Positions 3,458 through 63,595 of a stretch of 64,000 bases of DNA are shown here, piece by piece; within the stretch, counting starts at the first letter, position 1; every line of letters starts with the position of its first letter. The stretch lies in the NCBI GenBank assembly GCA_964645555.1, contig CAZYBP010000001.1, forward strand, positions 759-64,758, given 5' to 3'. The DNA comes from an uncultured Gammaproteobacteria bacterium. GTDB lineage: Bacteria > Patescibacteriota > Microgenomatia > Daviesbacterales > UBA10151. Position numbers and translations under genes: made by a program. Below the pieces are notes generated by a model that was not told the DNA's origin, searched no databases, and was given only the letters and a program-made list of their open reading frames with translations.

Positions 3458-3688
3458 TCATTCAGAGTTTCTAATATACTCCCAAACTGCCTGCAATATC
3501 CCTATTAACCAACCGATGAAGCTGACTCTCATTAGAGGTTCAGCCAAATTACGAAGAGTTAAAACTGTCAAGACAGCTGCCAGAACAAAAAAACCTAAAG
3601 CTACTTTCATAGAGAAACTGGCCTTTTTTTTCAAAGTCCAGATCACAATTATCCATACCGCCAAAATTGCCCAATAGATTATCTCCAT
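3458..3688 (-). CDS. Small hydrophobic membrane protein (2-3 TM), function unknown
   Basis: 76-aa ORF composed almost entirely of hydrophobic helices. Lies immediately downstream of a family-A membrane gene. Could be a GtrA-like small flippase subunit or spurious. Confidence 0.3.
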   Translation of the reverse strand: MEIIYWAILAVWIIVIWTLKKKASFSMKVALGFFVLAAVLTVLTLRNLAEPLMRVSFIGWLIGILQAVWEYIRNSE

Positions 3689-9439: not shown

Positions 9440-9467
9440 AACTTTTGATTTAGTATATTATATAAAC

Positions 9468-10967
9468 ATGAAGAAGTTATTCCCCCTGATTATAATATTT
9501 GTAGTTGTTTTCCTCTTATATTATCAGACTCTTTTTGTTTATTTTTCTCAGGATGATTTCTTTATGTTTAAAATCAGTCAAACTGACAATACATTAGGGG
9601 GATTTTTAAACCTGTTTGCCATACATTCTTTTCCGGAAAGAGGCATTGCGTTTTACAGACCCATCTTCAGAGAAGCCTTGCATAATATCTATTTTTCTGC
9701 CTTTGATTTAAACCATCTCCCTTTTAGGATACTAATGCTGATTGTTCATTTTATTAACATATCTTTGGTCTATTTTTTGGTAAATATTATCTTTGGAAAC
9801 AAAATTCTTGCTACCTTGGCAGCTTTTTTCTTCGGCATTACCGCTGCCAATGTTGCTCTTTTATATTATTTGGCCGGGGGAATAGAGACGGGCGGCGCAA
9901 CAATGTTTGCTCTGTTGACATTGATTTTATATAGAAAATATTTAGTAAATAATAATCCGGCGCTGTATCTGGCAACATTTGTTACCTTTTTAATGGCTAT
10001 TTTTTCTCATGAAATAGTGGGAATGACTGCCGGAGTTATGCTTATAATGCTTATTACATCCAACGTTAAAAAAATCTCAAGCAAAGCAATTGCTCTTTTA
10101 CCATTTCTACTTGCTACGGTTTTTCTTTTTTACATAGATTTAGTCAAGATCGGTCTTTCTTCCGGAGAAAAACAATATCAATTTATTTTCAATATCTCTT
10201 CTGTATTAAATTCCATAGTTTGGTATTCTGTTTGGGCTTTTGGCATCCCTGAAATGCTCATTGATTTTATAGGACCGGGGATAAAACTTAATCCGGTACT
10301 CATGCGCTACTGGGGAAATTATTATACGGTTATCTTTATTGCTTTCGGTATTGCTCTTTCCATCTTCCTTTTCATGTTTTTGTATTTAATACTTAAAAAA
10401 AAGTTTGTGTTTTTTGACCGGCGGTTTTGTTTTTTTCTGCTCTGGCTTATGGTGGGGCTGCTGCCGATAATATTTTTACCAAACCATAAATCCACCCACT
10501 ATTTAGTCTTTGTCCTGCCAGCTTTCTGGACTGTTGTGACTTTCATAGTCTTAAATTTTTACACTAACATGTCAAAATATGCTAAATTTACCGCTAGCAT
10601 ACTGACTGCCCTGGTAATTTTTTCCCTTTTAACCCTATCTGCAGTGTCTATAAAACTAGAAGACACTACATATTGGGCAGCAAGCAGAGGAAGACTGGCA
10701 GAAAGATTAATAAATCAAATCAAAACAACTTATCCTAACTTACCCAAAGAAGCTATTATCTACTTCGAAAATGATCCAAATTATCCCCACCTCACTGCAG
10801 AATGGGGTTCCAGTTCCAAACAGGTAGCTGTTATATTAAACAATCAGGACGCTTTAAGACTTATCTATAATGATTCCAACCTGAGAGTATATTATGAGGA
10901 TCTTGACAAACCAGCGGAAAAGCTTCAAGAGACAAATGTCTATCGAATAAAAGCAAAAATATATTAA
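9468..10967 (+). CDS. Family-B polytopic membrane protein (GT-C-fold, GT39/ArnT-like candidate), 499 aa
   Basis: At least 10 TM helices. Acidic FSQDDFFMF motif in the first extracytoplasmic loop, as in the Dx(D/E) loop-1 motif of GT-C enzymes. Stop overlaps the stop of the convergent gene. Confidence 0.6.
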   Translation: MKKLFPLIIIFVVVFLLYYQTLFVYFSQDDFFMFKISQTDNTLGGFLNLFAIHSFPERGIAFYRPIFREALHNIYFSAFDLNHLPFRILMLIVHFINISLVYFLVNIIFGNKILATLAAFFFGITAANVALLYYLAGGIETGGATMFALLTLILYRKYLVNNNPALYLATFVTFLMAIFSHEIVGMTAGVMLIMLITSNVKKISSKAIALLPFLLATVFLFYIDLVKIGLSSGEKQYQFIFNISSVLNSIVWYSVWAFGIPEMLIDFIGPGIKLNPVLMRYWGNYYTVIFIAFGIALSIFLFMFLYLILKKKFVFFDRRFCFFLLWLMVGLLPIIFLPNHKSTHYLVFVLPAFWTVVTFIVLNFYTNMSKYAKFTASILTALVIFSLLTLSAVSIKLEDTTYWAASRGRLAERLINQIKTTYPNLPKEAIIYFENDPNYPHLTAEWGSSSKQVAVILNNQDALRLIYNDSNLRVYYEDLDKPAEKLQETNVYRIKAKIY

Positions 10968-13900
10968 TTTAGTTGCTTCCGGCGAAATTGTTTACCTAAG
11001 AGTAAAAGTGACAGCAGAAAAAATACAGTTAAACTTATCTTCAAACCTGTATACAAATTATCTTGCGGGGTAAATTTTATCCTGAAAGATAATTCACCGG
11101 TTCTATTAATTAACCATCCATTAGCATATCCATTTGTCAAGTAATGATCTTTTTCAGCAACTTCTCCCATTTTTGGAGAATCCATAATCACTTTCCAGCC
11201 ATTATGGAAGCTTTCATTTAATACTATAAACATATCCTGATTGGGATTATTCACTTGCACTTGGTACTCCACCGGGGAAATTTTTTTAAATTCGGCAGTA
11301 ACAGGACTAAAAGTATTGCCAACTGAGCTACTCAACACGACACTACCATTAAAAGATTCAGCTATACTCAAATCCCTAATTTCCACCTTAGATTGATTAT
11401 CGGTAAATATTTTTATCGTTGGCTTATCTGTGCTTCTGTCTAACCGTACTGAAGCCGTATTATTGGTACTTATTGAGAGGGTTAGATATTTCCAATTAAA
11501 ATCATGTGCATTATCACTAATTTCTTTTCTGAGTTTTGGCACTTTAACACCCGTCAGCTTATCAGAATCCTGCCAAAATTGTATCTGCGGGGGGGGACCT
11601 TGAAGCACTTTATAGTTAAAACTCAAGATATACGTTTTATCAGGATTATAGTCCGAAATTGTGTATTCAGTAATTCCCTCTTTGTTGCTATCAACCTTAT
11701 GAAGCACATTCAAATTGTTTTGTATAGATAAACCTATTTCATGTACCCCCGGAGTTAATTCAATCTCACCTAAAGAAAACCAGTTCTTGCTGTCTTCTTG
11801 CTTTAAAACCATATATTTAGCCGTCCCATCAAGATAAACTTTTATAGTCTTGCCGTCTTCTAGACCGAAATGTTTACTATCAACAGATGTTAAAATAAAC
11901 TCCATCCGTGTATGATTACGGATAAAAAACTGGTATACGTTGATCTTGCTGGAATTTTCTACTTCAGTATCAACAAAAGTATAGTAAACCTCAAGACCGA
12001 TATCTTTTAGAAAAGCTGATATCTTTTCAATATCTTCCTTAATTTTCAAATTAATCTCGTTATTGCCGGCGGCATCTATAAAGCTTGTCAGTTTCTTTTT
12101 TTCTTCATCAAGCACTACCTTTATAATGGACTTAGTTTGCGTATCCAAATCTTCCTCAGATAATTTTTTCAACATCCCAGTTGTTTCATCAAGATAAGCG
12201 GAATATTGTGCAATTGACCGATTAAATTCCTGCTCTTTTTTTGCTTGTCTTAAACGATCTGCTTCAATTATTCTCTTTTGAGTTAGAACAAGCATTTTCA
12301 TAGACTTCTCATAAAAAGGCGTAAAATAAAATTCAATTTTTTCCTTCAGAATTACTGCAGGATAAAATATGGAGTCAGGCAAATATTTTATAAATGGTCG
12401 GGGTATTATTATATCAGGAGGGGTTGAAAAAGATTCCAAAGGAATGACCCTCTGCGGATAAAGAATTTCTTTGTAAAGGATACTTTCATCAATATGCTGG
12501 GTACTAAACTCTTGTAAGAAAATGTTGTTTGTATTGATAACATTACCCATAATATAATCCGTTTGGCTTATATCACGGGGGAGGCCACTACCTGATACCA
12601 ATGATATTCCTCCTGCAATATTGACAGCTGACTTGGTTTCGTCTAAAAATTTGTAAACCTTAAGATGTCCTGTTTCTTTAACAATTGAAAGATCTGAAGA
12701 TGTGTTTAAAAAATGCTCTATCTTCTTTGGATTATCAATTCTTCTTTGGGAATAATCTAAATCTTTATTCAAAACAATATATTTTATTCCCAAATTTTTT
12801 AGAATTGCTTTTTGGGCAATATAGTTTTCTTTATGAAAAGTTCTGGCAATTTCCTCAATAAGCCGGTCAACAAAAGGGATATATAACTGCCTGGAGATGG
12901 ATGCTCCGGGAAATAGATGTGAAGCCAGTTCTACTCCGTTATAAGTATATGTCCAGTTATACGTTGCTGCATCCCCTTCTGAAATTGGCAAAATTAATAT
13001 TTTGCCTGGATTTATTGTAAGCTCCTTCGACAAAAAGGCTGAAACTTCTTTGTAATCTGCAGGCACTGTAAAAAAGGGTGGATATTTATCACTCCCAAAT
13101 AACCTATCTCCAAACATTGGCCAAACATAGACAATCATACCCATTACCAAAATAACCGTAATAATTTTTGGAATTAATGCCTTGAATGGCACATTTAGCT
13201 TTATTTTGAATATCCATAAGTTCCGTACTCCCAATGTTATGAGTATGGATGCTGGCAAAAACACCAGCAAGCCAGTTTTTTCGAAAGGATTTCTGATTGC
13301 ACCTAATAAATAAATATTCGCATAAATCCAGGCTGTGATTTTTCCAAAAGGCTCTGCCGCCCCTTTTGCCATAAATACCCCAAAAAGAAAAAGCGTTATC
13401 ATATACCATACTTTTCCTTCTCTTTTGATAAAACTTAACAGAATAAATAGTACTGAAGTCCAGCTTAAAAGCTGGAAGTACGGACTTAAATATACTTCAC
13501 CCCAATCCTTTTCAAAAAACATTATAAAAGGATTAATCCCTCTGATAACATAATTTATTGTGGATTGTGAGCTTAGAGTAAGAAGGGTATCAACATTCCC
13601 TTTATTTGAAAAAGCCGATACTAAATTTGTAGTACTAAACAAAGGATACAACCACCAAAAATTTGTTAATATCCACAAAACAAAAAGTGTAACAGTTAAA
13701 AAAATATTTCTTGTTATTTTTTTAACTTGTCTGCGGTTTTCAAACACGGAGAAAATAAATATAACCGCCACCGCCAGCCAAATTGCTATAACTGGAGCAA
13801 CTGAGGAGAACATATAACTTGCCAGAAATGATATAACAAGGAACAAGAAAATAAATATCATTCTTCCTTTCTCCAAAAGCTTGATATAAAAGAATACAAA

Positions 13901-14386
13901 ATAAGGCAACGATGCCGAGAGGATAAAATTGGCATAAATAAATCTATGCCAAACAATCATCATAAAAGGATTGAATATATAAAATAACCCAGCCAAAAGC
14001 TGCAATCTACCACCATAAGGAATAATTTGCTTACAAAGCAGGCTTACCCCCAAGCCTTGTAAGTAAATTATGATAAAAAATATGACCTTTTGGATCCCGA
14101 TTGCACCAAAACCTAAACGTTCTAAAATACTCATAAAGTAGTAGAAAGGTATTGATGCGGCAACTGTGGGAATTGAAGTACCGGGGCCTAATGCTTCCCA
14201 CCACAACCATCTAATCTGTTCCAATATTTTTCCCGGGGCGTAAGTCGGAATACCTACCTCAGTTCCTCCAAACAATATATTCTTAGTAAACCAAAGTTGC
14301 ACTAATAAAAAAGCAATCAATAAGAAAAAAACTCTTGGATCCAGTAAAATATCTTTTACTTTTTCCAGAGTTTTCATTTTTTCCAT
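10964..14386 (-). CDS. Family-A large polytopic membrane protein (GT-C-like candidate), 1140 aa, with central coiled-coil insert
   Basis: Carries RNPFEKTG, and the C-terminal YANGWLINRTGE motif followed by a TM anchor. Roughly 100 aa of charged helical sequence (EADRLRQAKKEQEF...) sits between the TM domain and the beta-rich ectodomain. Confidence 0.7.
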   Translation of the reverse strand: MEKMKTLEKVKDILLDPRVFFLLIAFLLVQLWFTKNILFGGTEVGIPTYAPGKILEQIRWLWWEALGPGTSIPTVAASIPFYYFMSILERLGFGAIGIQKVIFFIIIYLQGLGVSLLCKQIIPYGGRLQLLAGLFYIFNPFMMIVWHRFIYANFILSASLPYFVFFYIKLLEKGRMIFIFLFLVISFLASYMFSSVAPVIAIWLAVAVIFIFSVFENRRQVKKITRNIFLTVTLFVLWILTNFWWLYPLFSTTNLVSAFSNKGNVDTLLTLSSQSTINYVIRGINPFIMFFEKDWGEVYLSPYFQLLSWTSVLFILLSFIKREGKVWYMITLFLFGVFMAKGAAEPFGKITAWIYANIYLLGAIRNPFEKTGLLVFLPASILITLGVRNLWIFKIKLNVPFKALIPKIITVILVMGMIVYVWPMFGDRLFGSDKYPPFFTVPADYKEVSAFLSKELTINPGKILILPISEGDAATYNWTYTYNGVELASHLFPGASISRQLYIPFVDRLIEEIARTFHKENYIAQKAILKNLGIKYIVLNKDLDYSQRRIDNPKKIEHFLNTSSDLSIVKETGHLKVYKFLDETKSAVNIAGGISLVSGSGLPRDISQTDYIMGNVINTNNIFLQEFSTQHIDESILYKEILYPQRVIPLESFSTPPDIIIPRPFIKYLPDSIFYPAVILKEKIEFYFTPFYEKSMKMLVLTQKRIIEADRLRQAKKEQEFNRSIAQYSAYLDETTGMLKKLSEEDLDTQTKSIIKVVLDEEKKKLTSFIDAAGNNEINLKIKEDIEKISAFLKDIGLEVYYTFVDTEVENSSKINVYQFFIRNHTRMEFILTSVDSKHFGLEDGKTIKVYLDGTAKYMVLKQEDSKNWFSLGEIELTPGVHEIGLSIQNNLNVLHKVDSNKEGITEYTISDYNPDKTYILSFNYKVLQGPPPQIQFWQDSDKLTGVKVPKLRKEISDNAHDFNWKYLTLSISTNNTASVRLDRSTDKPTIKIFTDNQSKVEIRDLSIAESFNGSVVLSSSVGNTFSPVTAEFKKISPVEYQVQVNNPNQDMFIVLNESFHNGWKVIMDSPKMGEVAEKDHYLTNGYANGWLINRTGELSFRIKFTPQDNLYTGLKISLTVFFLLSLLLLGKQFRRKQLN

Positions 14387-15003
14387 TTGATTGCTATTAC
14401 TTGGGCAGCTATATTGGGATTTATATTAGCAACCGGATTCATCAGAAACGAAATAAAATATAACGGCAGCTGTATTAGCTTAATTTCATTACCTGCATGT
14501 GAGTGGCTGCCGTAGACAAGTTTCAACCCTGTGCCAAATACCCGGAAACCCTTTCCTTTAAAATCTTTGGGTAGCCAGGCGGATAAGTGACGTTGATATT
14601 TATTTGCATCATATTCCTCCTGCAAACAATCACCGTTTGGTGTAGTAAGAAGTATCAATGTTTTAGCAATTCTTTCCATCTCTTTTATTAACAAGAAGCC
14701 ATCCTTTTTATCAAGATGCTCTACTGTTTGTAAAGACACAACCATATCAAAACTTTTGTCATCAAAGGGGAGTTTTTTTATCAAATCCACTTTCATAACT
14801 TTTTTATATTTTCCGCCACTTTTACAAATTTTAAGATAGGGTTGGAAGATATCGGCGCCTGTTATCTGATATTTGCCTTCATTATTGACCAAATCTCCAA
14901 ACGCCCCTTTGCCGCACCCCAAATCCAATATGGTATTAATTTTAAATTTCTTAATATTTCTTTTGATCAACCAAGGGTATGTGAAAGGTAAATTATCAAT
15001 CAT
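14374..15003 (-). CDS. Class I SAM-dependent methyltransferase
   Basis: Motif I ILDLGCGKGAFG, 209 aa. Confidence 0.75.
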   Translation of the reverse strand: MIDNLPFTYPWLIKRNIKKFKINTILDLGCGKGAFGDLVNNEGKYQITGADIFQPYLKICKSGGKYKKVMKVDLIKKLPFDDKSFDMVVSLQTVEHLDKKDGFLLIKEMERIAKTLILLTTPNGDCLQEEYDANKYQRHLSAWLPKDFKGKGFRVFGTGLKLVYGSHSHAGNEIKLIQLPLYFISFLMNPVANINPNIAAQVIAIKWKK

Positions 15004-16019
15004 TTGGTTCTTATAAACGAGTCAAAAGAATTTACGATGGCTTTATCATAAAGTAACTTCGTTATCATTTCCTTCCCTGCCTTTTTGGCTTTGCTCTGCA
15101 CTTTTTTGCGCTTTCCGAAAATATCATTTAGATGCAAAGCTACCCAAAGCAGTGAGGTAAATCTTGTTAAACCTAAGTTTATTTTTCTTTTAATAATTAT
15201 CTCCCATAGTCCTGCAGTAAAATAAATAAAAATAGTAACTGGAAGATTTTTCAACAAAAATGGAACAGGATAATTTTTTATCAAAGTTATAATTCTGTTT
15301 TTATTAAAGTGCCATCTGACTTTAATCCTCACCATATCGGATAAATCAGTCGCACCCCGTCTGTGGAAAGCGGAAACTTTAGGAAAATAAACCACTCTAA
15401 ACCCCTGGCTCCAAGCCCGCAGAGCCAAATCAAGATCTTCATATCCGATTCCAAAATCCTCATCAAATAAACCAACTGATTCAACTGATGCTTTTCTAAG
15501 AATTGAGCATGACCCGCTGACCGATAAAACTTCTTTCTCTGCATTAAAATTATCAGCACTCATTCCTGCTCCAATGGTAATTGGGGTTCCAAAAGGATCT
15601 ATCGTCTCCCCCGCACTATCAATAATTTGATGATCAAAGTAGGAAAGTAGTTTGCCTTGTGATAAAGCAATATCTTTATTATTGTCTAAAAACTTGATAA
15701 ATTCCTGGAAATACCCGTTTTCTACCACTACATCATTATTGAAAAAAGCAATATATTCACCGGTTGAATTTTTTATGCCCAAGTTTAATCCTTGGCTATA
15801 CATATTAACGGGATTTTTAATTATTTTTAGTTTTGGAAATTTTTTCCCGGCAACTTCAACACTTTCATCAGTTGAGGCATTATCAACTAAAATAACCTCA
15901 AGATTAGGGTAATTGTTTTTAAATATCGAAGAAACCGCCTCTGTCAGCAGATTTAACTTAAGCCCGTTATAATTTGATATCACAACCGTTACTTTCGGCC
16001 ATTTTTTAACTTTTTTCAT
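15000..16019 (-). CDS. Glycosyltransferase family 2
   Basis: VTVVISNYNG...ILVDNASTDES followed by NNDV, a classic GT2 signature. Confidence 0.8.
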   Translation of the reverse strand: MKKVKKWPKVTVVISNYNGLKLNLLTEAVSSIFKNNYPNLEVILVDNASTDESVEVAGKKFPKLKIIKNPVNMYSQGLNLGIKNSTGEYIAFFNNDVVVENGYFQEFIKFLDNNKDIALSQGKLLSYFDHQIIDSAGETIDPFGTPITIGAGMSADNFNAEKEVLSVSGSCSILRKASVESVGLFDEDFGIGYEDLDLALRAWSQGFRVVYFPKVSAFHRRGATDLSDMVRIKVRWHFNKNRIITLIKNYPVPFLLKNLPVTIFIYFTAGLWEIIIKRKINLGLTRFTSLLWVALHLNDIFGKRKKVQSKAKKAGKEMITKLLYDKAIVNSFDSFIRTK

Positions 16020-17214
16020 TTTTAATCTCTCCTAACTTTTTTATAAACTGGTCAGTCCTATTTTCCCAGTTCCATTCAGATCCAATTAAAGCAATTGCCT
16101 GATTAGATAATTTATTATAAAGGGACTGATTAGTCAAAAGCCGTATAATTTCCGCGGCAAAATCTTCTAAATTCCCCACTCTTACTTTTAACATACCTTG
16201 TGGATAATAACTCTTCAGGGAAGATAAATCAAAACTCACACCCGGCAATCCGAAAGCCATGGCTTCAGCAGCCGCCATACCGCCGGAATCATAAAATGCA
16301 GGATGCAAAACTATTTTACTTTTGGAAAAAATATTGTATTTCTCCGGCCCGTCGAAAACATAACCTAATAGCTTAACATTATCACCTAAATCTAAACGGT
16401 CAATTTTTGCCTGCACATCTTTCATTAACGGCCCATCACCAATCATGGCCAGTTTCGCCTCAGGTAACTTCTTCGTCACCAACTTCCAAATTTCGATTAA
16501 TTCTACTACTCCTTTTTGCGGATGGAATCTGCCCTGAAAAACTGCGTCGTAATTTTTAGGTTTATTTGTACCATTTTCACGAATCCATTTTTTTATCTTT
16601 GAAACATTAACTGCCCCAAGCAAAATCAAGACCTTATTTTGTTTATTTAATTTTGGAAATTGATTTCTTTCCTCCTCGTTGTTAATAAGAACAAAATCAG
16701 CAAATTTTTCAATCAGGGGTTTTACCGGCAGTTGCATCAAATAGTAGCAAAGGGCAGAAAGACGGTAAGTTGTCTGCCTTTTTCCGTTAGTAAAACCCAA
16801 GATAGGATTCGGTGCTGTTTGAAACCAGGCAGCTGCCCAAATCGCTTTAGGAAAACGGAGTTTAAGAATAAATGCCGGTACAGAATCCATCCAGAACTCC
16901 GAGGCAGAATATAAAACCGTGTTATCTGAATTTTCCATTTTTACAGTCAGTGCAATCCTTATCCCCTCAACTATCCGGGCAAGATAGTTAACAAAAAAAC
17001 CGAAGTGCTTCCAAGGATACATACCTGACACACGGTAGTTAATACTCAATCCCTCAAGCATTTGGCTTTTGCACATTCTTAGTCCGTCCTCCCAAAGATA
17101 AATTGCAATCTGATAACCTCTGCTTTGTAGGTTCCTGGCAAGCTCAATAAAAATCCTGTCACTTCCTGAAAGCCCTTTACCTAAAGCCGCCATTGCTATA
17201 ATATAAAACTTCAT
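16006..17214 (-). CDS. Glycosyltransferase family 4 (GT-B fold)
   Basis: C-terminal ...SGGMAAAEAMAFGLPGVSFD..., the E-x7-E / GLP region typical of GT4. Confidence 0.75.
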   Translation of the reverse strand: MKFYIIAMAALGKGLSGSDRIFIELARNLQSRGYQIAIYLWEDGLRMCKSQMLEGLSINYRVSGMYPWKHFGFFVNYLARIVEGIRIALTVKMENSDNTVLYSASEFWMDSVPAFILKLRFPKAIWAAAWFQTAPNPILGFTNGKRQTTYRLSALCYYLMQLPVKPLIEKFADFVLINNEEERNQFPKLNKQNKVLILLGAVNVSKIKKWIRENGTNKPKNYDAVFQGRFHPQKGVVELIEIWKLVTKKLPEAKLAMIGDGPLMKDVQAKIDRLDLGDNVKLLGYVFDGPEKYNIFSKSKIVLHPAFYDSGGMAAAEAMAFGLPGVSFDLSSLKSYYPQGMLKVRVGNLEDFAAEIIRLLTNQSLYNKLSNQAIALIGSEWNWENRTDQFIKKLGEIKNEKS

Positions 17215-17232
17215 ATAAGGTTGATTATACTT

Positions 17233-19038
17233 ATGAAGCTATCGTTAAAACAACTGCTCTGGATTGTAATTGGCATTCCTCTGGTTTCTTATCTACTGTT
17301 AAAACCTACGTTCAATTTGTCTTTATTTGGTGATGATTGGGAGCAGCTTTATTTTATGTGGCTGGAATTTGAATCCAGACATTCCTTTAGCTGGTTTGAC
17401 ATTAAATCTTATCTAGGACCATATAACTTTTCTTATTCTTATTTGGGGATAATAAATAATTTCTTTGGTCTAAATTCCGCAGCTTATTTTTATGCTTCAT
17501 TTCTTTTTAGGGTTCTATCAATAATCTCGGTATATTTTCTGGTTAATTTTCTGACCAAAGAAAAATTAGCCCCCTTTTTAGCTTCGCTAATATTTATTTT
17601 CTCTGCCGCAGGCTTAGAAACCACCAACTGGGTATTCAATATGAATACCTATATGGCCATATTTTTGTTTAATCTTAGCGTAATATTTTATTTAAAATTC
17701 CGATTAAAGCCAAAAATAAATCTGCCGGACCTCGCTTGGTTTATCCTTCTTTTTGCAGCTGCACTCTTTGTAGCCTCAACCAGGATGCATGGAGCAGCCC
17801 CTTTCATAATATTGATCGATTTGATCCTAATATTCCTGTTTGAAAAGAACAAACCAAGCTTAATTTCATATTCGAGATTAATCATTCCCCCGCTTGTACT
17901 TTTGACTCTGATATATTACGGAGCCTTCGGTCATATTGGAGCCGGCGGGTTTACAGACCGTCTCAAGCTGGGAATGGAAACTGCATTAGCTCTTTTGTCA
18001 AAAGGACAATACTTATTTTTATTTTTTCTTCCGGGTATTATCGGCCATATCAGTTTACCGGATTCTTTAACCCTAAACTATAAAACATCTACCTATTTAA
18101 TTGTTGCTATCTTTTCTTTATCTGCTTTATTGTCACTTATTATATGGTTCATTGTAAGCATTGTTAAATTTGAAAAAGCGCAAAAAGATTTAGGCTTGCA
18201 AAGTTTCTTTGGAGTTACATTTATTTGGGCAATTCTGGTATATATAGTCTCTGTATCAAACACTATTATCCCTATCGGCCAATTTTTCTCAATTTTTGTT
18301 GGGGGCGAAATTCTTTTTCTAATTTTTTGGTTATTTTTCTTTCTTAAACATAAGTTCCCCCTGGTTTCTTTTACCTGCATTTTTTCACTACTATATCTTT
18401 TGGCTTTTACCTTAATTTATTGGTTATTCAGTCCGGCGGTTTTTTCTGAAACTACCAGCAGGTATTTAACAATGGGCGGAGTGGGATTTGCTATTTTCTT
18501 TGGTGTATTTTTAAGTTTCCTATTTAAAACACTTCCCTCTGGATTGCAGGTATTACCTATTACATTTTTGTCAATCTGGCTTTTTGTTAATTTTTGGGCC
18601 GGCAGGGAATATTGGATGTTTATGGAAACAAACCGGAACTCCCAATTGGCAAAATCTATTTGGAATTCCTTAACAGCAGATATTAAAGATCTTGATATAG
18701 AAAACCCGACGGTATTTTTTCTGACAGCCGACAACCCCTCTCTGCTCTATTGGAACGTTGACTTTGGTTTTCCCTCCCATATGGGTTTGACTTATAAAAT
18801 ACCTGATTTAAATAACACTCCTGTTTCCACATCGGATTATTCAACATTACTTGAATACGCAAAAGACGGCTCACCCCTTAAAAAAATCCACGGCAGGCCG
18901 GTTAAAGAAATTCCCTTAGATCATATTTATGCATATCATTTAACTCAGGATAAATTTGTTTCTCAAACTGATTTAGTCAGAAAGAAGCTCAAGGAAGATT
19001 TGGACAAAATTACTTCACAACCAAAAGCCGGTTATTAA
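17233..19038 (+). CDS. Family-B polytopic membrane protein (GT-C-fold candidate)
   Basis: LFGDDWEQLYFMW motif after TM1 and more than 12 TM helices. The ORF track starts at TTG 17221; the ATG at 17233 (MKLSLKQLL) is more plausible. The 3' end overlaps the convergent carbamoyltransferase by 29 nt. Confidence 0.6.
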   Translation: MKLSLKQLLWIVIGIPLVSYLLLKPTFNLSLFGDDWEQLYFMWLEFESRHSFSWFDIKSYLGPYNFSYSYLGIINNFFGLNSAAYFYASFLFRVLSIISVYFLVNFLTKEKLAPFLASLIFIFSAAGLETTNWVFNMNTYMAIFLFNLSVIFYLKFRLKPKINLPDLAWFILLFAAALFVASTRMHGAAPFIILIDLILIFLFEKNKPSLISYSRLIIPPLVLLTLIYYGAFGHIGAGGFTDRLKLGMETALALLSKGQYLFLFFLPGIIGHISLPDSLTLNYKTSTYLIVAIFSLSALLSLIIWFIVSIVKFEKAQKDLGLQSFFGVTFIWAILVYIVSVSNTIIPIGQFFSIFVGGEILFLIFWLFFFLKHKFPLVSFTCIFSLLYLLAFTLIYWLFSPAVFSETTSRYLTMGGVGFAIFFGVFLSFLFKTLPSGLQVLPITFLSIWLFVNFWAGREYWMFMETNRNSQLAKSIWNSLTADIKDLDIENPTVFFLTADNPSLLYWNVDFGFPSHMGLTYKIPDLNNTPVSTSDYSTLLEYAKDGSPLKKIHGRPVKEIPLDHIYAYHLTQDKFVSQTDLVRKKLKEDLDKITSQPKAGY

Positions 19039-20710
19039 AAACCAGCACATCCATCTTAGTCCGCAAATAACAATCAATTGCCTCCTGCGGGGTACAGACA
19101 ATCGGCTCATTTTCATTAAATGAAGTATTGAGCAAAACAGGAACACCGCTAAGCTTCTCAAAACTTTTAAGCAGTGAGTATATATGCGGTGAAATATTCC
19201 GTCTGACAGTCTGAATTCTGGCAGTTCCGTCCGCATGTGTTATGCTGGGCAAAAGTTTTGGATCCTTAACCCTTGCGACTATCGTCATAAATGGACTCTC
19301 GTCAAGAATATCAAAATACTTATTTGCATCCTCGTAGGTCACCATCGGTGCAAACGGACGGAAAAACTCCCTTTTTTTAATCCTCGAGTTAAGTATATCT
19401 TTAATGTCACCTCTACGGGCATCCGCCAAGATCGACCTATGTCCCAAAGCCCGCGGTCCAATCTCCATCCCGCCGTCAAAGTAGCCAACAATTTTACCCT
19501 CAAACAGTAACTTTGCCAAAGCAGATGATTGGTCATTGCTAACATCAGCAACCAGTCCTGACTCAGACAAAGCTTTTTCACATTCTTCCATTGTAAACTT
19601 AGGTCCGAAATCAACCCTGTCAAGGATAAATTCGCGTTTTCCACCAAGTTCCTGATGATGTACTGTTAATGCTGCCCCTAAACTGCAACCCCCGTCATAA
19701 GCCACAGGCGGGACATAAATTTTTTTAAACTTTCCTTTCTCAAGCAATATGGTATTCATGAGGACGTTTTGAGCAACACCACCGGCAATACAAAGATTTG
19801 TACTGCCGGTAGAATCATATAGATAAGTGCCCAGATTTAAAGCAATCTCTTCGAGTCTTTTTTGAGCTGAACAGGCAATATCAAAATGTTTTTGTTTATA
19901 TTTTGTACCGTACTCACGTGCCGGACCTAAAGCTTTTGCTAATTTTTGCGAAAAATGCTTTCCTACTCCTTGTGAATATAAACTAATATAATCAACATTC
20001 AGTTTATAAAATGGACTGCCATCATTTTTGAGAATATCTTCAAATATTTTCTGATACCGGTTATGACCATAGGCTGCCATTCCCATCACTTTATACTCAT
20101 CATTAAGCGGTCTGAACCCCAAATATTGAGTGATTGCTCCGTAAAACACCCCCAAAGAGTCATAATAAGGCAGCGAAGTCAATTTTGTAATACTGTTACC
20201 CCGGCCTTTAAATAGAGTAGTTGCCGTATCTTCCCCAAAACCGTCTACTACTAAAATTGCAGCGTCATTAAATTTACTGACCCAGTAAGTACTATAGGCG
20301 TGAGCTGTGTGATGGGCTACATACCTAACAGGCGGTACTTTACCGGTAAAATACTTACGGAAGACTCTTGTCAGATTTGCCATTTGTAGTTTTGTAGCCA
20401 GAGGTGTATAGCTGGCACCTTTTTTAAGAAGGTTTAAACTGGTGGGCAATTGTCTAATAGCAGACAAAAGTTGCATTTTAAGAAACTCCCATGGAAGCCA
20501 GCAGTAAGCAATATAATCAACTTCACTTAAGTTTATCCCAGCACTGTTAAGACAAAAATTAATTGCATTTACAGGGAACGCGTAGGTGTGTTTTTGGCGG
20601 GTAAAACGTTCTTCCTCTGCCATGGCAATTAATTTGCCATTCTTTAAAATACAGGCAGAGGAATCATGGAAATAACAATTAATACCCAATATATATTTTG
20701 ACTTGCTCAT
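19010..20710 (-). CDS. Carbamoyltransferase (NodU/CmcH/NovN/TobZ family)
   Basis: N-terminal ILGINCYFHDSSACILKNGKLIAMAEEERFTRQKH is the hallmark start of NodU-type O-carbamoyltransferases. 566 aa fits the family size. Confidence 0.85.
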   Translation of the reverse strand: MSKSKYILGINCYFHDSSACILKNGKLIAMAEEERFTRQKHTYAFPVNAINFCLNSAGINLSEVDYIAYCWLPWEFLKMQLLSAIRQLPTSLNLLKKGASYTPLATKLQMANLTRVFRKYFTGKVPPVRYVAHHTAHAYSTYWVSKFNDAAILVVDGFGEDTATTLFKGRGNSITKLTSLPYYDSLGVFYGAITQYLGFRPLNDEYKVMGMAAYGHNRYQKIFEDILKNDGSPFYKLNVDYISLYSQGVGKHFSQKLAKALGPAREYGTKYKQKHFDIACSAQKRLEEIALNLGTYLYDSTGSTNLCIAGGVAQNVLMNTILLEKGKFKKIYVPPVAYDGGCSLGAALTVHHQELGGKREFILDRVDFGPKFTMEECEKALSESGLVADVSNDQSSALAKLLFEGKIVGYFDGGMEIGPRALGHRSILADARRGDIKDILNSRIKKREFFRPFAPMVTYEDANKYFDILDESPFMTIVARVKDPKLLPSITHADGTARIQTVRRNISPHIYSLLKSFEKLSGVPVLLNTSFNENEPIVCTPQEAIDCYLRTKMDVLVFNNRLLVVK

Positions 20711-20786
20711 TTAAATTAAGGTAAACATTAACAAAAAACTTAAAAAAAGTATAGACTTTAAATAATACTCATTATATGATGATCTC

Positions 20787-22541
20787 ATGTCCAAAGGTTT
20801 GATTCAAAGTTTACTTCTTTGCTCCATTATAATAGTTATCAGTCTCTTTACACTTTATCCTTCCTTTAAACTTGCTTTGTTTGGAGACGATTGGCAGCAA
20901 ATCTTTCATTATTTTCTTTATCTTGGGCCAAAGAGCAGCGTTTTCGATCATTTAACTTATTTTGTAGGGGGCTATGGGGCTTTTGGAGTTATTACAGGAA
21001 TATCTTACCTGGCTTTTGGCCATGATTATAAAATGTATTATATATTTTCATATATATATAAGTTACTTTCTGCCTTTGCAATTTTTCCCCTTGCTTTTTA
21101 CTTAACCCGTTCAAAACTTGCAGCCTTTTATGCTTCACTATTTTTATCTGTCACCATCATCGGGCTTGAGAGTACTAATTGGGTAGTCAATTCCCCCGCT
21201 TACCTGGCTGTTGCCAACCTATCGTTATTTCTGTATTTTTTTCTAAAGTCCAGGGAAAATTTAAAACCACTCTATTTTATTGGGGCGGCAATATTTTTTT
21301 ACCTTGCCCATATTTTTGCCCCCGTCAGAATGACCGGTCTGCTGCCGTTTACAATAATTTTGGAGATATTTCTATACATTAAATCTCTCAATATTAAATT
21401 ATCGTTTATACGCTTGGTCATTCTATTTGTTGTATTTGCAATCATTACTGTTACGGGAGCATCTGCAGGCAGAACTGATACATTAGCCGGACAAGCATCA
21501 AAAACACTATTTTCCGGGTTTAGCCAAATTGCTGCTGCATTAGACAAAGGCCGCACAGACTTTTTATTTTATCCGGTCATGACTGTTGGCCGTATTGTTG
21601 TACCGGATACCACAGCTATTAAAATATTTCCCATGCTGATTTATCTGATTGTATTTATGGCAGTTTTTTATGCAAATGCCAACAAAAGTAAAAAAGTAAT
21701 TGCCGGTATAGCAGTGGGGATAGCCGTTTGGTCACTAATCAGTATGCTGATTTATGAATCCAATAAACTCACGTTATCAGCCCGCGATGCTTTATCCCTG
21801 GCTATTGGAGGATATTTTTTAACAACTGCCATTATATTATTGTTTTTTTTAAAAAAGCATTTGCTTTTTTACTCTGTATTTATAGCCAGCTTTTGGTCCG
21901 TATTTTCATTTATATTCCCTTGGATTAGAGCACCGGAGACGCTGAACCCGACTGAACATAGATACTTAGTTGCTTCATCGGTTGGTGTTGCAATTTTCTT
22001 TGCCAGTATTATCGGGCTGGGTAAGCAGTTAAAAAACCGTGTTTATCTTTTTTTGGTAGTAATACCGTTTTTATTAATAAATATTTTGGCCACCCGGAGT
22101 TTTCTTACCGACGCTGTCCAAAATAGCCATGGCAGTGAGGCAATAAATAAAATTTGGCCGCAATTTCCCCGTATTGCTGAAATTGGTAAAACGGAAAAAC
22201 CATTAATGTTCTTCTTCACCTCTTCTCCTGAAAAAGAAAAATTAAAACATCATTCTCTGACATTCGGTTTTCCTTTCAGAATGGCCTTTATCTATAATAT
22301 CGACAATTACTGGAAAATGCCTATTGCTACCAACAGCTGGGAAGATATCGTCTCGGCAGTTTCGGACGGACAATCTTTATTTATGAACAATTTCCCCAAA
22401 GATCCTATCCCTGTTGAAAATATTTATGCATTCTACCTTACTTCTGATAACAATTTATTAAATATAACAGAAGCGACAAGAGAAAAATTAAAGGATTTTC
22501 TTAAACAAAACCCAGAGAGTAATAATCAGACCGGAAATTAG
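20787..22541 (+). CDS. Family-B polytopic membrane protein (GT-C-fold candidate)
   Basis: LFGDDWQQIFHYFLYLGP motif, many TM helices. 3' end overlaps the convergent family-A gene by 54 nt. Confidence 0.6.
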   Translation: MSKGLIQSLLLCSIIIVISLFTLYPSFKLALFGDDWQQIFHYFLYLGPKSSVFDHLTYFVGGYGAFGVITGISYLAFGHDYKMYYIFSYIYKLLSAFAIFPLAFYLTRSKLAAFYASLFLSVTIIGLESTNWVVNSPAYLAVANLSLFLYFFLKSRENLKPLYFIGAAIFFYLAHIFAPVRMTGLLPFTIILEIFLYIKSLNIKLSFIRLVILFVVFAIITVTGASAGRTDTLAGQASKTLFSGFSQIAAALDKGRTDFLFYPVMTVGRIVVPDTTAIKIFPMLIYLIVFMAVFYANANKSKKVIAGIAVGIAVWSLISMLIYESNKLTLSARDALSLAIGGYFLTTAIILLFFLKKHLLFYSVFIASFWSVFSFIFPWIRAPETLNPTEHRYLVASSVGVAIFFASIIGLGKQLKNRVYLFLVVIPFLLINILATRSFLTDAVQNSHGSEAINKIWPQFPRIAEIGKTEKPLMFFFTSSPEKEKLKHHSLTFGFPFRMAFIYNIDNYWKMPIATNSWEDIVSAVSDGQSLFMNNFPKDPIPVENIYAFYLTSDNNLLNITEATREKLKDFLKQNPESNNQTGN

Positions 22542-25316
22542 TGCAAATTGCGATATTAAACTATCTTTGTCTAAATCATTTTGCAGACTATATTCCAAAT
22601 TCAAGTCAAAATCTCCTAGTCTGTCGATTAACCAACCGTTAGCAAAAGAGTTGGTCAGGAAATGTTTCTCAACTTTAGTCCCGTCCGGATAACTCAATTG
22701 CCAGCCACTGTTAAAAATAGAGGAGAAAACAACCACAAACGGATTTAAGGAATTTTCAATACGGATGTTGTATCTTGACGGGCTGATTTTGTCATAAGAA
22801 AGATTAGGTGTTTTATTAATTCTATCTTCTAATTTATTGATTAAAACTAAATCCGGTAGCATTAGTTCTCTTACGTTCATATTTTTAACCTTTAAGTTGT
22901 CTAAGTCAGGCCAAAAGTATATATTTAGCGCACTGGCTGTTGAGCGTGCTTCAAACAAATCATTAAACGACTCAAAACGATCTAAAGTGGTAGTTGTTAA
23001 ATCTTTCATATGATACGGACGAATCTTACCTTTTTCTTTTTGATCATTATCAAAAGAAATAACTAACTTTTTTTCTTGTAGTGTCGAATAATCAAAGGAA
23101 ACCAAATATTTTGAGAAAGGATTGATATTTAAGACAGTAAAACTGTTTTTATCATCAGATAAGGTTGTAAGATTACCTGAATACGAAATATTTATTATTA
23201 CTGTGTGTAATCCTTCTGTTAAGTTGAGTTCGCCATAAGACCACCTGCCGTCTTCTCTTAAAACCGGATTTCCTTGTAGCCTGACACCATCAACTAAAAT
23301 ATCTCCAGGTTCCGATAACTTATCCGAAATTAACTCATATTTGCCGCTATTTTTAATATCAAATTTGTAGTAACCGGGTTTGCGCTCCGGATTTTTCAAA
23401 TCATCAGGATGGATAACCCTTAAGTTAACCAGGTCGTCAAGATAGGATATATTTGAAATAGCAGTTCCGGCTGAAGAAGCCTCAGAAAAAGTAAAGTCTT
23501 TTAATTGAACCGTTGGCGATACATCCATTAAATTACCTGTTACATACAGGCTCTTGTCGGTCCAAAATGGGTTTTCCCAAAATTCAAGTTTGCCGAAAGA
23601 TAAGGTTTTTACCAATTCTCCTTTCTTACTTTTGTCCATGGCGATTTTTTGTATTGTTTGAGGATCCCTCATTTTTCTCTCGTAAATATCTACATCGGAT
23701 CTGATTAGTAGATATTTAGCGTTTAAAACATTCATAACCTCATAAAATTTGGGCTTACTGACAAATAACTCTTCCAGTTGATCAGCAACTTTGTCAAAAT
23801 ATAAAATAGTGGTAGAAGACATAATATGCGGAGTATCGAATAGCCACATTGATGTTTCTATTCCTTGGTAGCCTTTTTCCCAATTATAGGTTACCCCTTG
23901 TCCGCTGAAAGGAAAACCGATAAATCTAAAATTATTACCCTGGAACTTGAGCCAATTGTTGGCCTGCTCATAATACTGCGGCACTTTTACCTTATACCCT
24001 ACCGAATAATTGTCTGTCGGCGGGAAAAAACCGGTAAAAACAAGGCCTGACCAAAAGGGATAGCCGTATAAAGCAACTATAATGAATAAAGTGGCTGTAT
24101 AAACTGCTAAATGTAGCTTCTTTTGAAATTTTGACAATAAACCTTCAAGCCCCGCAGCCAATAAGGGTACTGCAGCAAGTAAGGTTATAAAACCAAATTT
24201 TTCAAATGGATTTCTAAAAAATTGCAGAGGAGAAATATTAATAAATAAAAATTGAAATAATTCTCCAAAGGGGGGATTATTTCCTTTGGCAAAGTATAGG
24301 CTTAGAAAAAACAATACGGCCAAAGCTAAAACATTAATATTTTTTCGGGCTTGAAATATAAAAATCAAGATAACTGCGGAAACTAAAAATTCTATTACTA
24401 CCGCTGCCGGCATGGAAAATAACTTCGGCCATTCAATTTGCGGAGTGGTGAAGAATGGCCCATGAAATAATCTAAAAAGGTATGTTAAATCCCCTAATGT
24501 TTTACTTGAGGCGGTCAGCGTCGATAGGCTTACATCGAATTGGAAAAAGGAAGATAATTCTTCAGAATATTTACCTATAAAAAGACTCCTTACAACCTGA
24601 CCAATCCACCATAAATTGACTAAAGAAAAATAAATTAAATTTATAGCAATAAAGCTTAGAGAAAATATTCTTTCCTTGGTTGTCTTAACTGTGATAAATT
24701 TAAATAAGGTAAAGTAAGTAAAAATAAACCATAAAATTATATTAAAGACAGGGTTTGATAATCCTAAAGAAAAAACAGCACAAGTTATCCCCACTACGGA
24801 AACATAATAAAAATTCTGTTTCTGTAAACCTTTGATATAAAAAGCGGAAACCAGAGGCAGAAGTGCCCAAAAAGCTATGTAATTATATAGAAATCGATTC
24901 CAAATATTAACTAAAGAGATAGAATTAAACCAATAAAATATAACTGCTACTACCAAATACTTCCTGCCAATGTGGGGAAAAAATTCCCGGGTAAATAAAG
25001 TAATTCCAACTCCGGATACTACAAGAAAAAACCAAAAAAGTCCGGCTTCAATTATATAATTGGCTACGCCAATTTTCTCAAGTAAAGAAAGCGCAAAAAA
25101 AGTAGGGGAGTATGCAGTCACAATACCGTTGGCAAATCCCAATCCGGAATTTGTGTCGGACCAGGCGCCCTTAACCTGACTATGAAATCTGGATAAATTA
25201 TAAAAGCTAATCTGGCTTTCGGCAGTACCTAATAATAAACCATCTTTAAACCAAGTAAATACCAAAATTGAACTGGCAATGGCTAAAACAGCTAAAAGTA
25301 GAAGGATGCTCCGCAT
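22488..25316 (-). CDS. Family-A large polytopic membrane protein (GT-C-like candidate), 942 aa
   Basis: Carries RNPFEKFGF, and the C-terminal FANGWLIDRLGDF motif with a TM anchor. Serves as the intact reference paralog. Confidence 0.7.
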   Translation of the reverse strand: MRSILLLLAVLAIASSILVFTWFKDGLLLGTAESQISFYNLSRFHSQVKGAWSDTNSGLGFANGIVTAYSPTFFALSLLEKIGVANYIIEAGLFWFFLVVSGVGITLFTREFFPHIGRKYLVVAVIFYWFNSISLVNIWNRFLYNYIAFWALLPLVSAFYIKGLQKQNFYYVSVVGITCAVFSLGLSNPVFNIILWFIFTYFTLFKFITVKTTKERIFSLSFIAINLIYFSLVNLWWIGQVVRSLFIGKYSEELSSFFQFDVSLSTLTASSKTLGDLTYLFRLFHGPFFTTPQIEWPKLFSMPAAVVIEFLVSAVILIFIFQARKNINVLALAVLFFLSLYFAKGNNPPFGELFQFLFINISPLQFFRNPFEKFGFITLLAAVPLLAAGLEGLLSKFQKKLHLAVYTATLFIIVALYGYPFWSGLVFTGFFPPTDNYSVGYKVKVPQYYEQANNWLKFQGNNFRFIGFPFSGQGVTYNWEKGYQGIETSMWLFDTPHIMSSTTILYFDKVADQLEELFVSKPKFYEVMNVLNAKYLLIRSDVDIYERKMRDPQTIQKIAMDKSKKGELVKTLSFGKLEFWENPFWTDKSLYVTGNLMDVSPTVQLKDFTFSEASSAGTAISNISYLDDLVNLRVIHPDDLKNPERKPGYYKFDIKNSGKYELISDKLSEPGDILVDGVRLQGNPVLREDGRWSYGELNLTEGLHTVIINISYSGNLTTLSDDKNSFTVLNINPFSKYLVSFDYSTLQEKKLVISFDNDQKEKGKIRPYHMKDLTTTTLDRFESFNDLFEARSTASALNIYFWPDLDNLKVKNMNVRELMLPDLVLINKLEDRINKTPNLSYDKISPSRYNIRIENSLNPFVVVFSSIFNSGWQLSYPDGTKVEKHFLTNSFANGWLIDRLGDFDLNLEYSLQNDLDKDSLISQFALISGLIITLWVLFKKIL

Positions 25317-44525: not shown

Positions 44526-44528
44526 ACT

Positions 44529-63583: not shown

Positions 63584-63595
63584 GACCAATATGTC

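What the first reader, a model, noticed from the sequence alone, without database searches (positions are those of the whole stretch)
9468..22541. Family B: LFGDDW-motif polytopic membrane proteins paired with family-A genes
Genes at 9468..10967 (FSQDDFFMF), 17233..19038 (LFGDDWEQLYFMW), 20787..22541 (LFGDDWQQIFHYF) and the partial 63596..64000 (LFGDDWLELWMYM) have an acidic DD motif just after the first TM helix followed by 10-14 TM helices. This is the layout of GT-C enzymes (ArnT/PMT/Emb) that use polyprenyl-phosphate sugars. Each sits directly next to a family-A gene or the carbamoyltransferase, divergently or convergently. That suggests functional pairing, for example a donor-specific and an acceptor-specific component.
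Basis: partly seen in the sequence, partly recalled or inferred. Interest (0 to 1): 0.55.

Follow-up and report, generated by a model that had tools for sequence, protein, structure and literature searches.

The report
Orphan GT-C glycosyltransferase family in Daviesbacteria
Three of the four flagged membrane proteins form an unannotated family of lipid-sugar-dependent (GT-C) glycosyltransferases that decorate the cell surface of tiny candidate-phyla bacteria; the fourth is a distant cousin, and the proposed obligate pairing with the neighbouring 'family A' genes does not hold.

Summary
The ORFs and DD motifs are real. 17233-19038, 20787-22541 and the partial gene (it starts at 63591, not 63596) are true paralogs. 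9468-10967 belongs to a separate, PMT_2-like family and is linked to them only by profile comparison (hhalign 97%).

The near-invariant Asp34 of GDDW sits at the tip of the first juxtamembrane helix, where GT-C_A enzymes carry their catalytic Asp. The positive-inside rule puts it outside the cell (K+R density 0.31 in inner loops against 0.05 in outer loops). So does a natural fusion of an AglJ/DPM1-like GT2, one TM helix and GDDW.

The GT-C reading is therefore supported. The pairing idea is not. Family A proteins are themselves AftD-like GT-Cs. Of 58 B-like genes in 19 other loci, 1 lies next to an A gene, 33 next to another B-like gene and 13 next to a GT2. Only the 20787 orthologue group keeps an A neighbour, in 3 of 7 close relatives.

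This is a new sequence family of a known enzyme kind, sitting in a 64-kb glycan island.

The parts
20787..22541 (+). Family B paralog (584 aa): orphan GT-C_A-fold glycosyltransferase. GDDW is at residues 33-36 (nt 20883-20894).
17233..19038 (+). Family B paralog (601 aa; an alternative TTG start lies at 17221). GDDW is at nt 17329-17340.
   Evidence: 30% identity, E 4e-46 to the 20787 protein over the full length. It is absent from the syntenic position in L024.
63591..64000 (+). Family B paralog, N-terminal 136 aa only, cut by the window end. GDDW is at nt 63672-63683.
   Evidence: phmmer E 5e-41 to the 20787 protein. ATG at 63591. Weak PMT_2 hit, E 0.017, below the cut-off.
9468..10967 (+). 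Separate GT-C family (499 aa, PMT_2-like, about 11 TM helices), a distant relative of family B. The DD motif is at residues 29-30 (nt 9552-9557).
10964..14386 (-). 'Family A' member: AftD-like GT-C (1140 aa) with a large C-terminal extracytoplasmic region.
   Evidence: PF11847 GT-C_AftD E 5e-14, 51.6 bits against cut-off 26; DUF5667.
22488..25316 (-). 'Family A' member: AftD-like GT-C (942 aa), convergent with the 20787 gene; the 3' ends overlap by 54 bp.
   Evidence: PF11847 E 1.2e-9, 37.1 bits. Orthologues lie next to B orthologues in L016, L023 and L024.
3679..6378 (-). 'Family A' member (899 aa), N-terminally shorter than its paralogs.
   Evidence: phmmer E 1e-183 to A_22491, aligned from its residue 2 to residue 76 of the paralog. 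PF11847 E 1.8e-4, below the cut-off.
27828..29930 (-). 'Family A' member split by one in-frame TGA at 28806-28808.
   Evidence: The two halves match the N- and C-terminal parts of the A paralogs. PF11847 E 5e-11 on the downstream half. Junction read.
19010..20710 (-). NodU/CmcH-type carbamoyltransferase lying between two family B genes.
   Evidence: Carbam_trans_N and Carbam_trans_C, E 1e-59 and 1e-63. Adjacent to B orthologues in L022, L024 and L025.
15000..16019 (-). Leloir GT2 (rhamnosyltransferase/EpsD-like), of the type found fused to family B in Woesebacteria.
   Evidence: PF00535. 26% identity, E 2e-16 to the GT2 domain of fusion P0279. Fusions.
57463..58284 (-). GT2 of the TIGR04283-like type. 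Its orthologues lie within 10 kb of family B genes in most Daviesbacteria loci, and this type is fused to family B in P0240.
   Evidence: NCBIfam best hit TIGR04283, 3e-28. Orthologues with E about 1e-110 in 13 loci. P0240 N-terminal domain.
43821..45242 (+). Two tandem AglJ/DPM1/ArnC-like GT2 genes: candidate polyprenyl-phosphate-sugar synthases that would make the donors.
   Evidence: NCBIfam best hits are AglJ, dolichyl-P-hexose transferase, ArnC and PpgS, all below the curated cut-offs.
51212..52998 (-). Two more polyprenyl-P-sugar-synthase-like GT2 genes. The 333-aa one matches PgfS/ArnC over its full length, including the C-terminal TM region.
1..717 (-). AglJ/PpgS-like GT2, another candidate donor synthase.
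2188..3447 (-). Wzx-type (Polysacc_synt) flippase.
   Evidence: PF01943 E 1.5e-21.

Best explanation
The LFGDDW proteins (17233, 20787, 63591) belong to a previously unannotated sequence family of GT-C_A-fold integral-membrane glycosyltransferases found in Microgenomates (Daviesbacteria, Woesebacteria).

Shown:
- The proteins have the GT-C_A fold.
- Asp34 of GDDW lies at the N-terminal tip of the first juxtamembrane helix after TM1.
- Three further conserved motifs, G[IL][EDQ]TT[ND]W, PxRMHG and RY, lie in loops on the same predicted side of the membrane.
- That side is predicted to be the outer face.
- The genes sit in a large glycan-biosynthesis island. They recur in tandem arrays next to, or fused with, GT2 genes.

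Inferred:
- Each paralog takes a polyprenyl-phosphate-linked sugar made on the cytoplasmic face by the AglJ/DPM1/ArnC-like GT2 enzymes encoded in the island.
- After the donor is flipped, the enzyme transfers that sugar on the outer face onto a cell-surface glycan or glycoprotein.
- Asp34 acts as catalytic base, and the invariant Arg181 and Arg392/Tyr393 hold the donor phosphate.
- The many paralogs differ in linkage or acceptor specificity.

The 9468 protein is a second, PMT_2-like GT-C family. The 'family A' neighbours are a third, AftD-like GT-C family. All three act in the same extracytoplasmic assembly or decoration pathway. They are not obligate two-part enzymes.
For: Fold and active site:
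- The AF2 model has pLDDT 91 and pTM 0.90.
- Foldseek against PDB returns STT3, AglB, PglB, DPY19 and ArnT at E 3e-5 to 4e-3.
- D34 begins helix 34-45 directly after TM1 (residues 2-28). GT-C_A enzymes carry their essential Asp at the tip of JM helix 1, within a conserved TM1-7 plus JM1/JM2 module (PMC12041299).
- Across 41 sequences down to 17% identity: D34 40/41, G33 40/41, R181, R392 and Y393 41/41.

Topology:
- K+R density is 0.31 in the predicted cytoplasmic loops and 0.053 in the loops on the DD side, over 33 sequences.
- The 826-aa Woesebacteria fusion in L020 has an AglJ/PpgS/ArnC-like GT2, a single hydrophobic segment (233-261), then GDDW at 266.

Sequence bridge to known GT-C:
- Family B to the 9468 family by hhalign at 97%. 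The 9468 family to PF13231 in 7 of 25 members.

Context:
- The window holds five AglJ/DPM1/ArnC/PgfS-like GT2 genes, a Wzx flippase, NDP-sugar enzymes, methyltransferases and a carbamoyltransferase.
- In 19 other loci, 13 of 58 B-like genes lie next to a GT2. Eight of those GT2s are AglJ/DPM1-like, in 7 loci. Two B-like genes are fused to a GT2.
- Five more GT2-B fusions occur among the top 150 family representatives.
Against: - No sequence-level match of family B to any Pfam, NCBIfam or PDB entry. The assignment rests on a predicted structure plus one profile-profile bridge.
- Neither the donor type (polyprenyl-P or polyprenyl-PP) nor the acceptor can be read from sequence.
- The polyprenyl-P-sugar-synthase-like GT2s all score below NCBIfam curated cut-offs.
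- No GtrA-like small flippase was found in the window.
- Two of the three GT2-B fusion types (P0240, P0279) have two hydrophobic segments before GDDW. Naive counting would then put GDDW on the GT2 side. I read the extra segment as interfacial or re-entrant, because the loop that follows it is K/R-rich. This is not shown.
- I could not measure distances between the conserved residues in the model.
Confidence: 0.75

Rival explanations
1. Family B proteins are oligosaccharyltransferase- or ligase-like enzymes. They would move a preassembled glycan en bloc from a polyprenyl-diphosphate carrier, flipped by the Wzx at 2188-3447, onto protein or cell-wall acceptors, rather than adding single sugars from polyprenyl-monophosphate donors.
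For: - The best Foldseek hits are STT3, AglB and PglB.
- The layout of 13 TM helices plus a C-terminal extracytoplasmic domain matches PglB/STT3.
- A Wzx flippase is present, and no Wzy or WaaL was recognised in the window.
Against: - No WWDxG motif in 0 of 33 and 0 of 41 family members.
- Arrays of up to seven paralogs (L013), and adjacency or fusion to DPM1/AglJ-like GT2s, fit single-sugar donors better than en bloc transfer.
Confidence: 0.12
2. One reading: family B and family A proteins work as obligate pairs, as a heterocomplex or as donor-specific plus acceptor-specific subunits. This would resemble Pmt1-Pmt2 or EmbA-EmbB.
For: - In the window, 9468 and 20787 each abut an A gene.
- The B_20787/A_22491 convergent pair recurs in L016, L023 and L024.
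- Woesebacteria L017 and L021 keep B, A, X_6606 and Wzx in one block.
Against: - 1 of 58 B-like genes in 19 loci lies next to an A gene, and only 4 loci have any A gene within 10 kb.
- 4 of 7 close orthologue contexts lack an A gene.
- Window adjacency is not significant: P = 0.10 and 0.32.
- The pairs are convergent with overlapping 3' ends, so they are not co-transcribed.
- A proteins carry a full AftD-type GT-C domain of their own.
- There is no profile similarity between A and B (hhalign 9%).
Confidence: 0.07
3. The proteins have a GT-C-like fold but are not glycosyltransferases. They would be scaffolds like PIG-U/GAB1 of the GPI transamidase, or transporters.
For: - MFS, CLC and MATE transporters appear low in the Foldseek list.
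Against: - The transporter hits have TM-scores of 0.08-0.15 and probabilities below 0.5.
- The near-invariant Asp at the catalytic position, together with invariant Arg/Tyr on the same face, argues for catalysis.
- No transporter Pfam family matches any of the 33 members.
Confidence: 0.03

Closest known systems
ArnT / PMT_2 superfamily (GT83, GT39; Pfam PF13231)
   Same: - GT-C_A fold, with an acidic motif at the start of the first outer loop after TM1.
- The window's 9468 family bridges family B to PMT_2.
   Different: - Family B itself does not match PF13231 (0 of 33 members).
- It has no MIR domain.
- Its own motif set is GDDW, GxETTNW, PxRMHG and RY.
- Its genes occur in tandem arrays and as GT2 fusions.
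Oligosaccharyltransferases STT3 / AglB / PglB (GT66)
   Same: Top Foldseek hits. 13 TM helices plus a C-terminal outer domain. Asp in EL1.
   Different: No WWDxG motif. The C-terminal domain is only about 135 aa. No sequence similarity.
Mycobacterial arabinan/mannan GT-C set (AftA, AftB, AftD, Emb, PimE)
   Same: - Several different GT-C families cooperate outside the membrane, using polyprenyl-P-sugars to build one complex envelope glycan.
- Family A in the window matches the AftD Pfam model.
- AftB also uses a DD motif at the tip of JM1 (PMC12041299).
   Different: - Family B has no detectable sequence relation to these enzymes (hhalign to family A 9%).
- The host is a small-genome CPR bacterium.
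- Neither the sugar nor the polymer is known.
Multi-component extracytoplasmic glycosylation systems (GtrB/GtrA/GtrC; CsbB/GtcA/YfhO; PPPRS/MATE/GT136)
   Same: A GT2 makes a polyprenyl-P-sugar, a flippase moves it, and a GT-C transfers it outside (PMC11127046; PMC8035078). Family B genes lie next to, or are fused with, DPM1/AglJ-like GT2 genes.
   Different: - No GtrA-like flippase was recognised in the window.
- Many GT-C paralogs occur per locus instead of one.
- Fusions also involve Leloir-type GT2s: rhamnosyltransferase-like and TIGR04283-like.

Membership tests
GT-C_A structural superfamily | Conserved N-terminal module of TM1-7, with two juxtamembrane helices between TM1 and TM2 (PMC12041299) | tested here: met
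GT-C_A structural superfamily | Conserved, catalytically essential Asp at the tip of JM helix 1 | tested here: met
   D34 is the first residue of helix 34-45. It is invariant in 33 of 33 sequences and in 40 of 41 divergent sequences. D29 and D30 are invariant in the 9468 family. Whether it is catalytically essential cannot be tested here.
GT-C_A structural superfamily | Active-site loop faces the extracytoplasmic or lumenal side | tested here: met
   Positive-inside rule: K+R density 0.31 against 0.053 over 33 sequences. The L020 fusion has a cytoplasmic-type GT2, one TM helix, then GDDW. Two other fusion types are ambiguous. This is a prediction only.
GT-C_A structural superfamily | Uses a polyprenyl-phosphate-linked or polyprenyl-diphosphate-linked sugar donor | not testable with these tools
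   Indirect evidence only: DPM1/AglJ/ArnC-like GT2 genes in the window, and such genes adjacent or fused to B genes elsewhere.
PMT_2 (PF13231; ArnT/PMT-like, GT83/GT39) | Match to the Pfam model at or above the gathering score (26.1 bits) | tested here: not met
   Family B: 0 of 33 members at E<=1. The partial paralog scores 15.7 bits, E 0.017. The window's 9468 protein has no hit, although 7 of 25 of its family members do, best E 5e-6.
Protein O-mannosyltransferase (GT39) | MIR domain in the large lumenal loop | tested here: not met
   No MIR or PMT Pfam hit in any member.
Oligosaccharyltransferase STT3/AglB/PglB (GT66) | WWDxG motif in the C-terminal extracytoplasmic domain | tested here: not met
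   The regex WWD.G matches 0 of 33, 0 of 41 and 0 of 25 sequences.
AftD-like GT-C (PF11847) | Match to the GT-C_AftD Pfam model | tested here: not met
   Family B and the 9468 protein have no hit, and hhalign of B against A gives 9%. The feature is met for family A genes 10964-14386 (51.6 bits) and 22488-25316 (37.1 bits).
Three-component extracytoplasmic glycosylation system | Polyprenyl-P-sugar synthase (GT2) genetically linked to the GT-C | tested here: met
   Eight B-like genes in 7 of 19 loci lie directly next to an AglJ/DPM1-like GT2. The L020 fusion joins such a GT2 to a B domain. The window has five such GT2 genes, though none adjacent to a B gene. All score below NCBIfam cut-offs.
Three-component extracytoplasmic glycosylation system | Dedicated small flippase (GtrA/GtcA type) or MATE flippase in the locus | tested here: inconclusive
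   No unassigned multi-TM ORF of 70-150 aa exists in the window other than a 76-aa 2-TM peptide. A Wzx/MOP-family flippase is present at 2188-3447.

The most novel reading that the evidence does not exclude
Daviesbacteria and Woesebacteria, despite very small genomes, run a mycobacterium-like extracytoplasmic assembly line. At least three unrelated GT-C families take part: orphan family B in arrays of up to seven paralogs, a PMT_2-like family and AftD-like proteins. Two further uncharacterised polytopic families (X_34347/X_53137 and X_6606) may belong too. Fed by several polyprenyl-P-sugar synthases, they would build a highly branched, methylated and carbamoylated envelope polymer not yet described for CPR bacteria. 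Family B would then deserve its own CAZy GT family.
Probability: 0.3. Interest if true: 0.6.

Novelty: new member of a known kind. Interest (0 to 1): 0.4.

Why it matters
Family B is not small. An exhaustive HMM search found 1210 cluster representatives at E<=1e-3. None carries any annotation, and neither Pfam nor NCBIfam covers the family.

Recognising these proteins as GT-C enzymes turns a block of 'hypothetical membrane proteins' in CPR genomes into a readable surface-glycan pathway. It supplies a motif set (GDDW, GxETTNW, PxRMHG, RY) for annotation. It also points to a large investment in extracytoplasmic glycosylation by organisms thought to depend on cell-cell contact with hosts.

The mechanism itself is conventional. 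The value lies in annotation and ecology, not in a new principle.

Tried and rejected
- Pfam, NCBIfam and PDB-sequence profile searches for family B returned nothing useful. The only PDB 'hits' were a spurious myosin VI stretch.
- hhalign of family B against the AftD-like family A (9%) and against the X_53137 family (17%) showed no relation. I therefore do not claim that the X proteins are GT-Cs.
- Literature searches for GT-C together with Candidate Phyla Radiation or Patescibacteria found nothing relevant.
- Using GT2-B fusions as a topology ruler gave a clean answer only for the L020 type. The P0240 and P0279 types have an extra hydrophobic segment, so parity is ambiguous.
- I searched for a GtrA-like small flippase ORF in the window and found none.
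- I considered whether the in-frame TGA at a conserved Gly codon in the AftD-like gene (28806-28808) signals genetic code 25. I rejected this because TGA terminates 17 of 50 window genes.
- I considered OST membership and rejected it because the WWDxG motif is absent.
Full report
**Observation**

The window has about 35% GC. Its closest named relatives are Candidatus Daviesbacteria, in the Microgenomates/CPR group.

The four ORFs and their motif strings are present as described. The partial gene begins with ATG at 63591, not 63596.

The proteins from 17233, 20787 and 63591 are true paralogs (30% identity, E 4e-46; phmmer 1e-19 to 1e-55). The 9468 protein is not detectably similar to them by BLASTP or phmmer. 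It belongs to a larger family of its own, with more than 315 hits in Daviesbacteria, Woesebacteria and other Microgenomates.

A profile-profile comparison does link the two families. hhalign gives 97.1%, E 5e-11, over TM1-TM6, with GDDW aligned to QDDF.

**What family B is**

No Pfam or NCBIfam model matches the full-length proteins or any of 33 homologues at E<=1. A family profile finds nothing in PDB sequences.

An AlphaFold2 model built from 33 sequences is confident (pLDDT 91, pTM 0.90). It shows 13 TM helices, several short helices between TM1 and TM2, and a C-terminal alpha/beta domain of about 135 residues.

- Foldseek against PDB returns STT3, AglB, PglB, DPY19 and ArnT. Transporters appear only at TM-scores of 0.15 or less.

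**Active site and topology**

GT-C_A enzymes share a TM1-7 module with two juxtamembrane helices, and an essential Asp at the tip of JM helix 1. AftB uses a DD motif there (PMC12041299).

In the model, D34 is the first residue of helix 34-45, immediately after TM1.

Across 41 family members down to 17% identity, conservation is as follows:

| Residue | Conserved in |
|---|---|
| D34 | 40/41 |
| G33 | 40/41 |
| D35 | 35/41 |
| W36 | 37/41 |
| G126, R181, P273, R392, Y393 | 41/41 |

These define four motifs, all in loops on the same predicted side: GDDW, G[IL][EDQ]TT[ND]W, PxRMHG and RY.

K+R density is 0.31 in the loops predicted to be cytoplasmic and 0.053 in the loops on the DD side, averaged over 33 sequences.

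A natural Woesebacteria fusion (L020, 826 aa) gives independent support. It joins an AglJ/PpgS/ArnC-like GT2 domain to a single hydrophobic segment (233-261), followed by GDDW at residue 266. The motif therefore lies across the membrane from a domain that needs cytoplasmic nucleotide sugars.

Two other fusion types (P0240, P0279) have a second hydrophobic segment. They are ambiguous on this point.

**Family size and partners**

The word-indexed search found 52 homologues. The exhaustive HMM search found 1210 cluster representatives at E<=1e-3 and 282 at E<=1e-30. Every source name given is 'hypothetical protein'.

Five of the top 150 representatives carry an N-terminal GT2 domain.

I took 18 loci from species-representative genomes plus 2 from contig look-ups and classified their ORFs with phmmer. 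Among 58 B-like genes in 19 independent loci:

| Neighbour of the B-like gene | Count |
|---|---|
| Another B-like gene (arrays of up to seven in about 15 kb, as in L013) | 33 |
| A GT2 gene | 13 |
| of which an AglJ/DPM1-like GT2 | 8, in 7 loci |
| Fused to a GT2 | 2 |
| An AftD-like family A gene | 1 |

**The pairing hypothesis**

Family A proteins match PF11847 GT-C_AftD above the gathering score. They are complete GT-C enzymes, not accessory subunits.

In the window, two of the four flagged genes abut an A gene. This is not significant: P = 0.10 over 51 genes and 0.32 within the 19-gene sub-cluster. The pairs are convergent with overlapping 3' ends.

Among seven contexts of the closest relatives of the 20787 protein (32-60% identity):

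- An A gene is adjacent in L016, L023 and L024, and absent in L022, L025, L026 and L027.
- The carbamoyltransferase is adjacent in L022, L024 and L025.
- L024 lacks a 17233 equivalent between the GT4 and the carbamoyltransferase.

Woesebacteria L017 and L021 keep a block of GT2, B, methyltransferase, A, X_6606 and Wzx that resembles window 2188-19038.

The association is therefore one of pathway and locus. It is partly syntenic in one orthologue group and is not a general two-component arrangement.

**Context**

The whole 64-kb window is a glycan island. It encodes:

- five AglJ/DPM1/ArnC/PgfS-like GT2s, all below the curated cut-offs;
- Leloir GT2 and GT4 enzymes;
- a Wzx flippase;
- NDP-sugar epimerases and dehydratases, a UDP-sugar dehydrogenase and a UDP-GlcNAc 2-epimerase;
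- C- and O-methyltransferases, an AsnB-like amidotransferase and a NodU-like carbamoyltransferase.

**Mechanism proposed (inferred)**

Polyprenyl-P-sugars are made on the inner face by the DPM1/AglJ-like GT2s. After the donor is flipped, each B paralog transfers the sugar on the outer face onto a surface glycan or glycoprotein. Asp34 acts as base, and Arg181 and Arg392/Tyr393 bind the phosphate. Paralogs differ in linkage or acceptor.

The main rival is en bloc, OST-like transfer from a diphosphate carrier. It is disfavoured by the absence of WWDxG, the paralog arrays and the DPM1-like fusion, but it is not excluded.

**Verdict**

Family B is a new, unannotated sequence family of a well-known enzyme kind. 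Its interest is moderate, and lies mainly in annotation and CPR cell-envelope biology.

Noticed in passing
window 27828-29930 (- strand); stop codon at 28806-28808: An AftD-like gene is interrupted by a single in-frame TGA. It falls exactly where the paralogs have Gly in the conserved RNPFEK(F/T)G motif. The L016 homologue is one 699-aa ORF. TGA is a normal stop in 17 of 50 window genes, so this looks like a GGA-to-TGA nonsense mutation or a sequencing error, not recoding.
   Followed up: partly
window 3679-6378 (- strand) and upstream 6379-6620: This AftD-like paralog starts at a TTG and aligns from its residue 2 to residue 76 of paralog 22488-25316, so it lacks the first TM region. The upstream sequence in that frame is full of stops. 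It may be truncated or frameshifted.
   Followed up: partly
window 34347-36716 (+) and 53137-55452 (+): Two polytopic paralogs of 770-790 aa (E 1e-191) with no Pfam hit and no profile link to family B (hhalign 17%). Orthologues sit immediately upstream of family B genes in L005, L006, L010, L014 and L015. They could be another uncharacterised membrane glycosylation component.
   Followed up: partly
window 6603-9272 (- strand): An 889-aa polytopic protein with no Pfam family above threshold (weak NCBIfam MmpA hit, 7e-7, far below cut-off). It is strongly conserved (E 1e-162 to 1e-233) next to an AftD-like gene and Wzx in Woesebacteria L017 and L021.
   Followed up: no
window 62414-63583 (+): A 389-aa protein with no Pfam hit directly precedes the partial family B gene. 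A 389-aa gene precedes a family B gene in the same way in L002.
   Followed up: no
window 3458-3688 (- strand): A 76-aa ORF with two predicted TM helices lies in the gap between Wzx and the AftD-like gene.
   Followed up: no
L020:9284-11764, L021:9029-11743, and proteins P0240, P0279, P0282, P0283, P0289: Natural fusions of three different GT2 types to the N-terminus of family B: AglJ/DPM1-like, rhamnosyltransferase/EpsD-like, and TIGR04283-like.
   Followed up: yes
L024:10332-12906: In one close relative, an ALGX-domain protein and an MBOAT acyltransferase lie beside the AftD-like gene. This suggests O-acylation of the same surface polymer.
   Followed up: no
L005, L007, L009, L011-L013, L016, L018 (record titles): Eight loci that encode family B and have Daviesbacteria-like gene content come from MAGs titled 'uncultured Gammaproteobacteria' (binchicken assemblies). 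The label is probably a placeholder or a misassignment.
   Followed up: no
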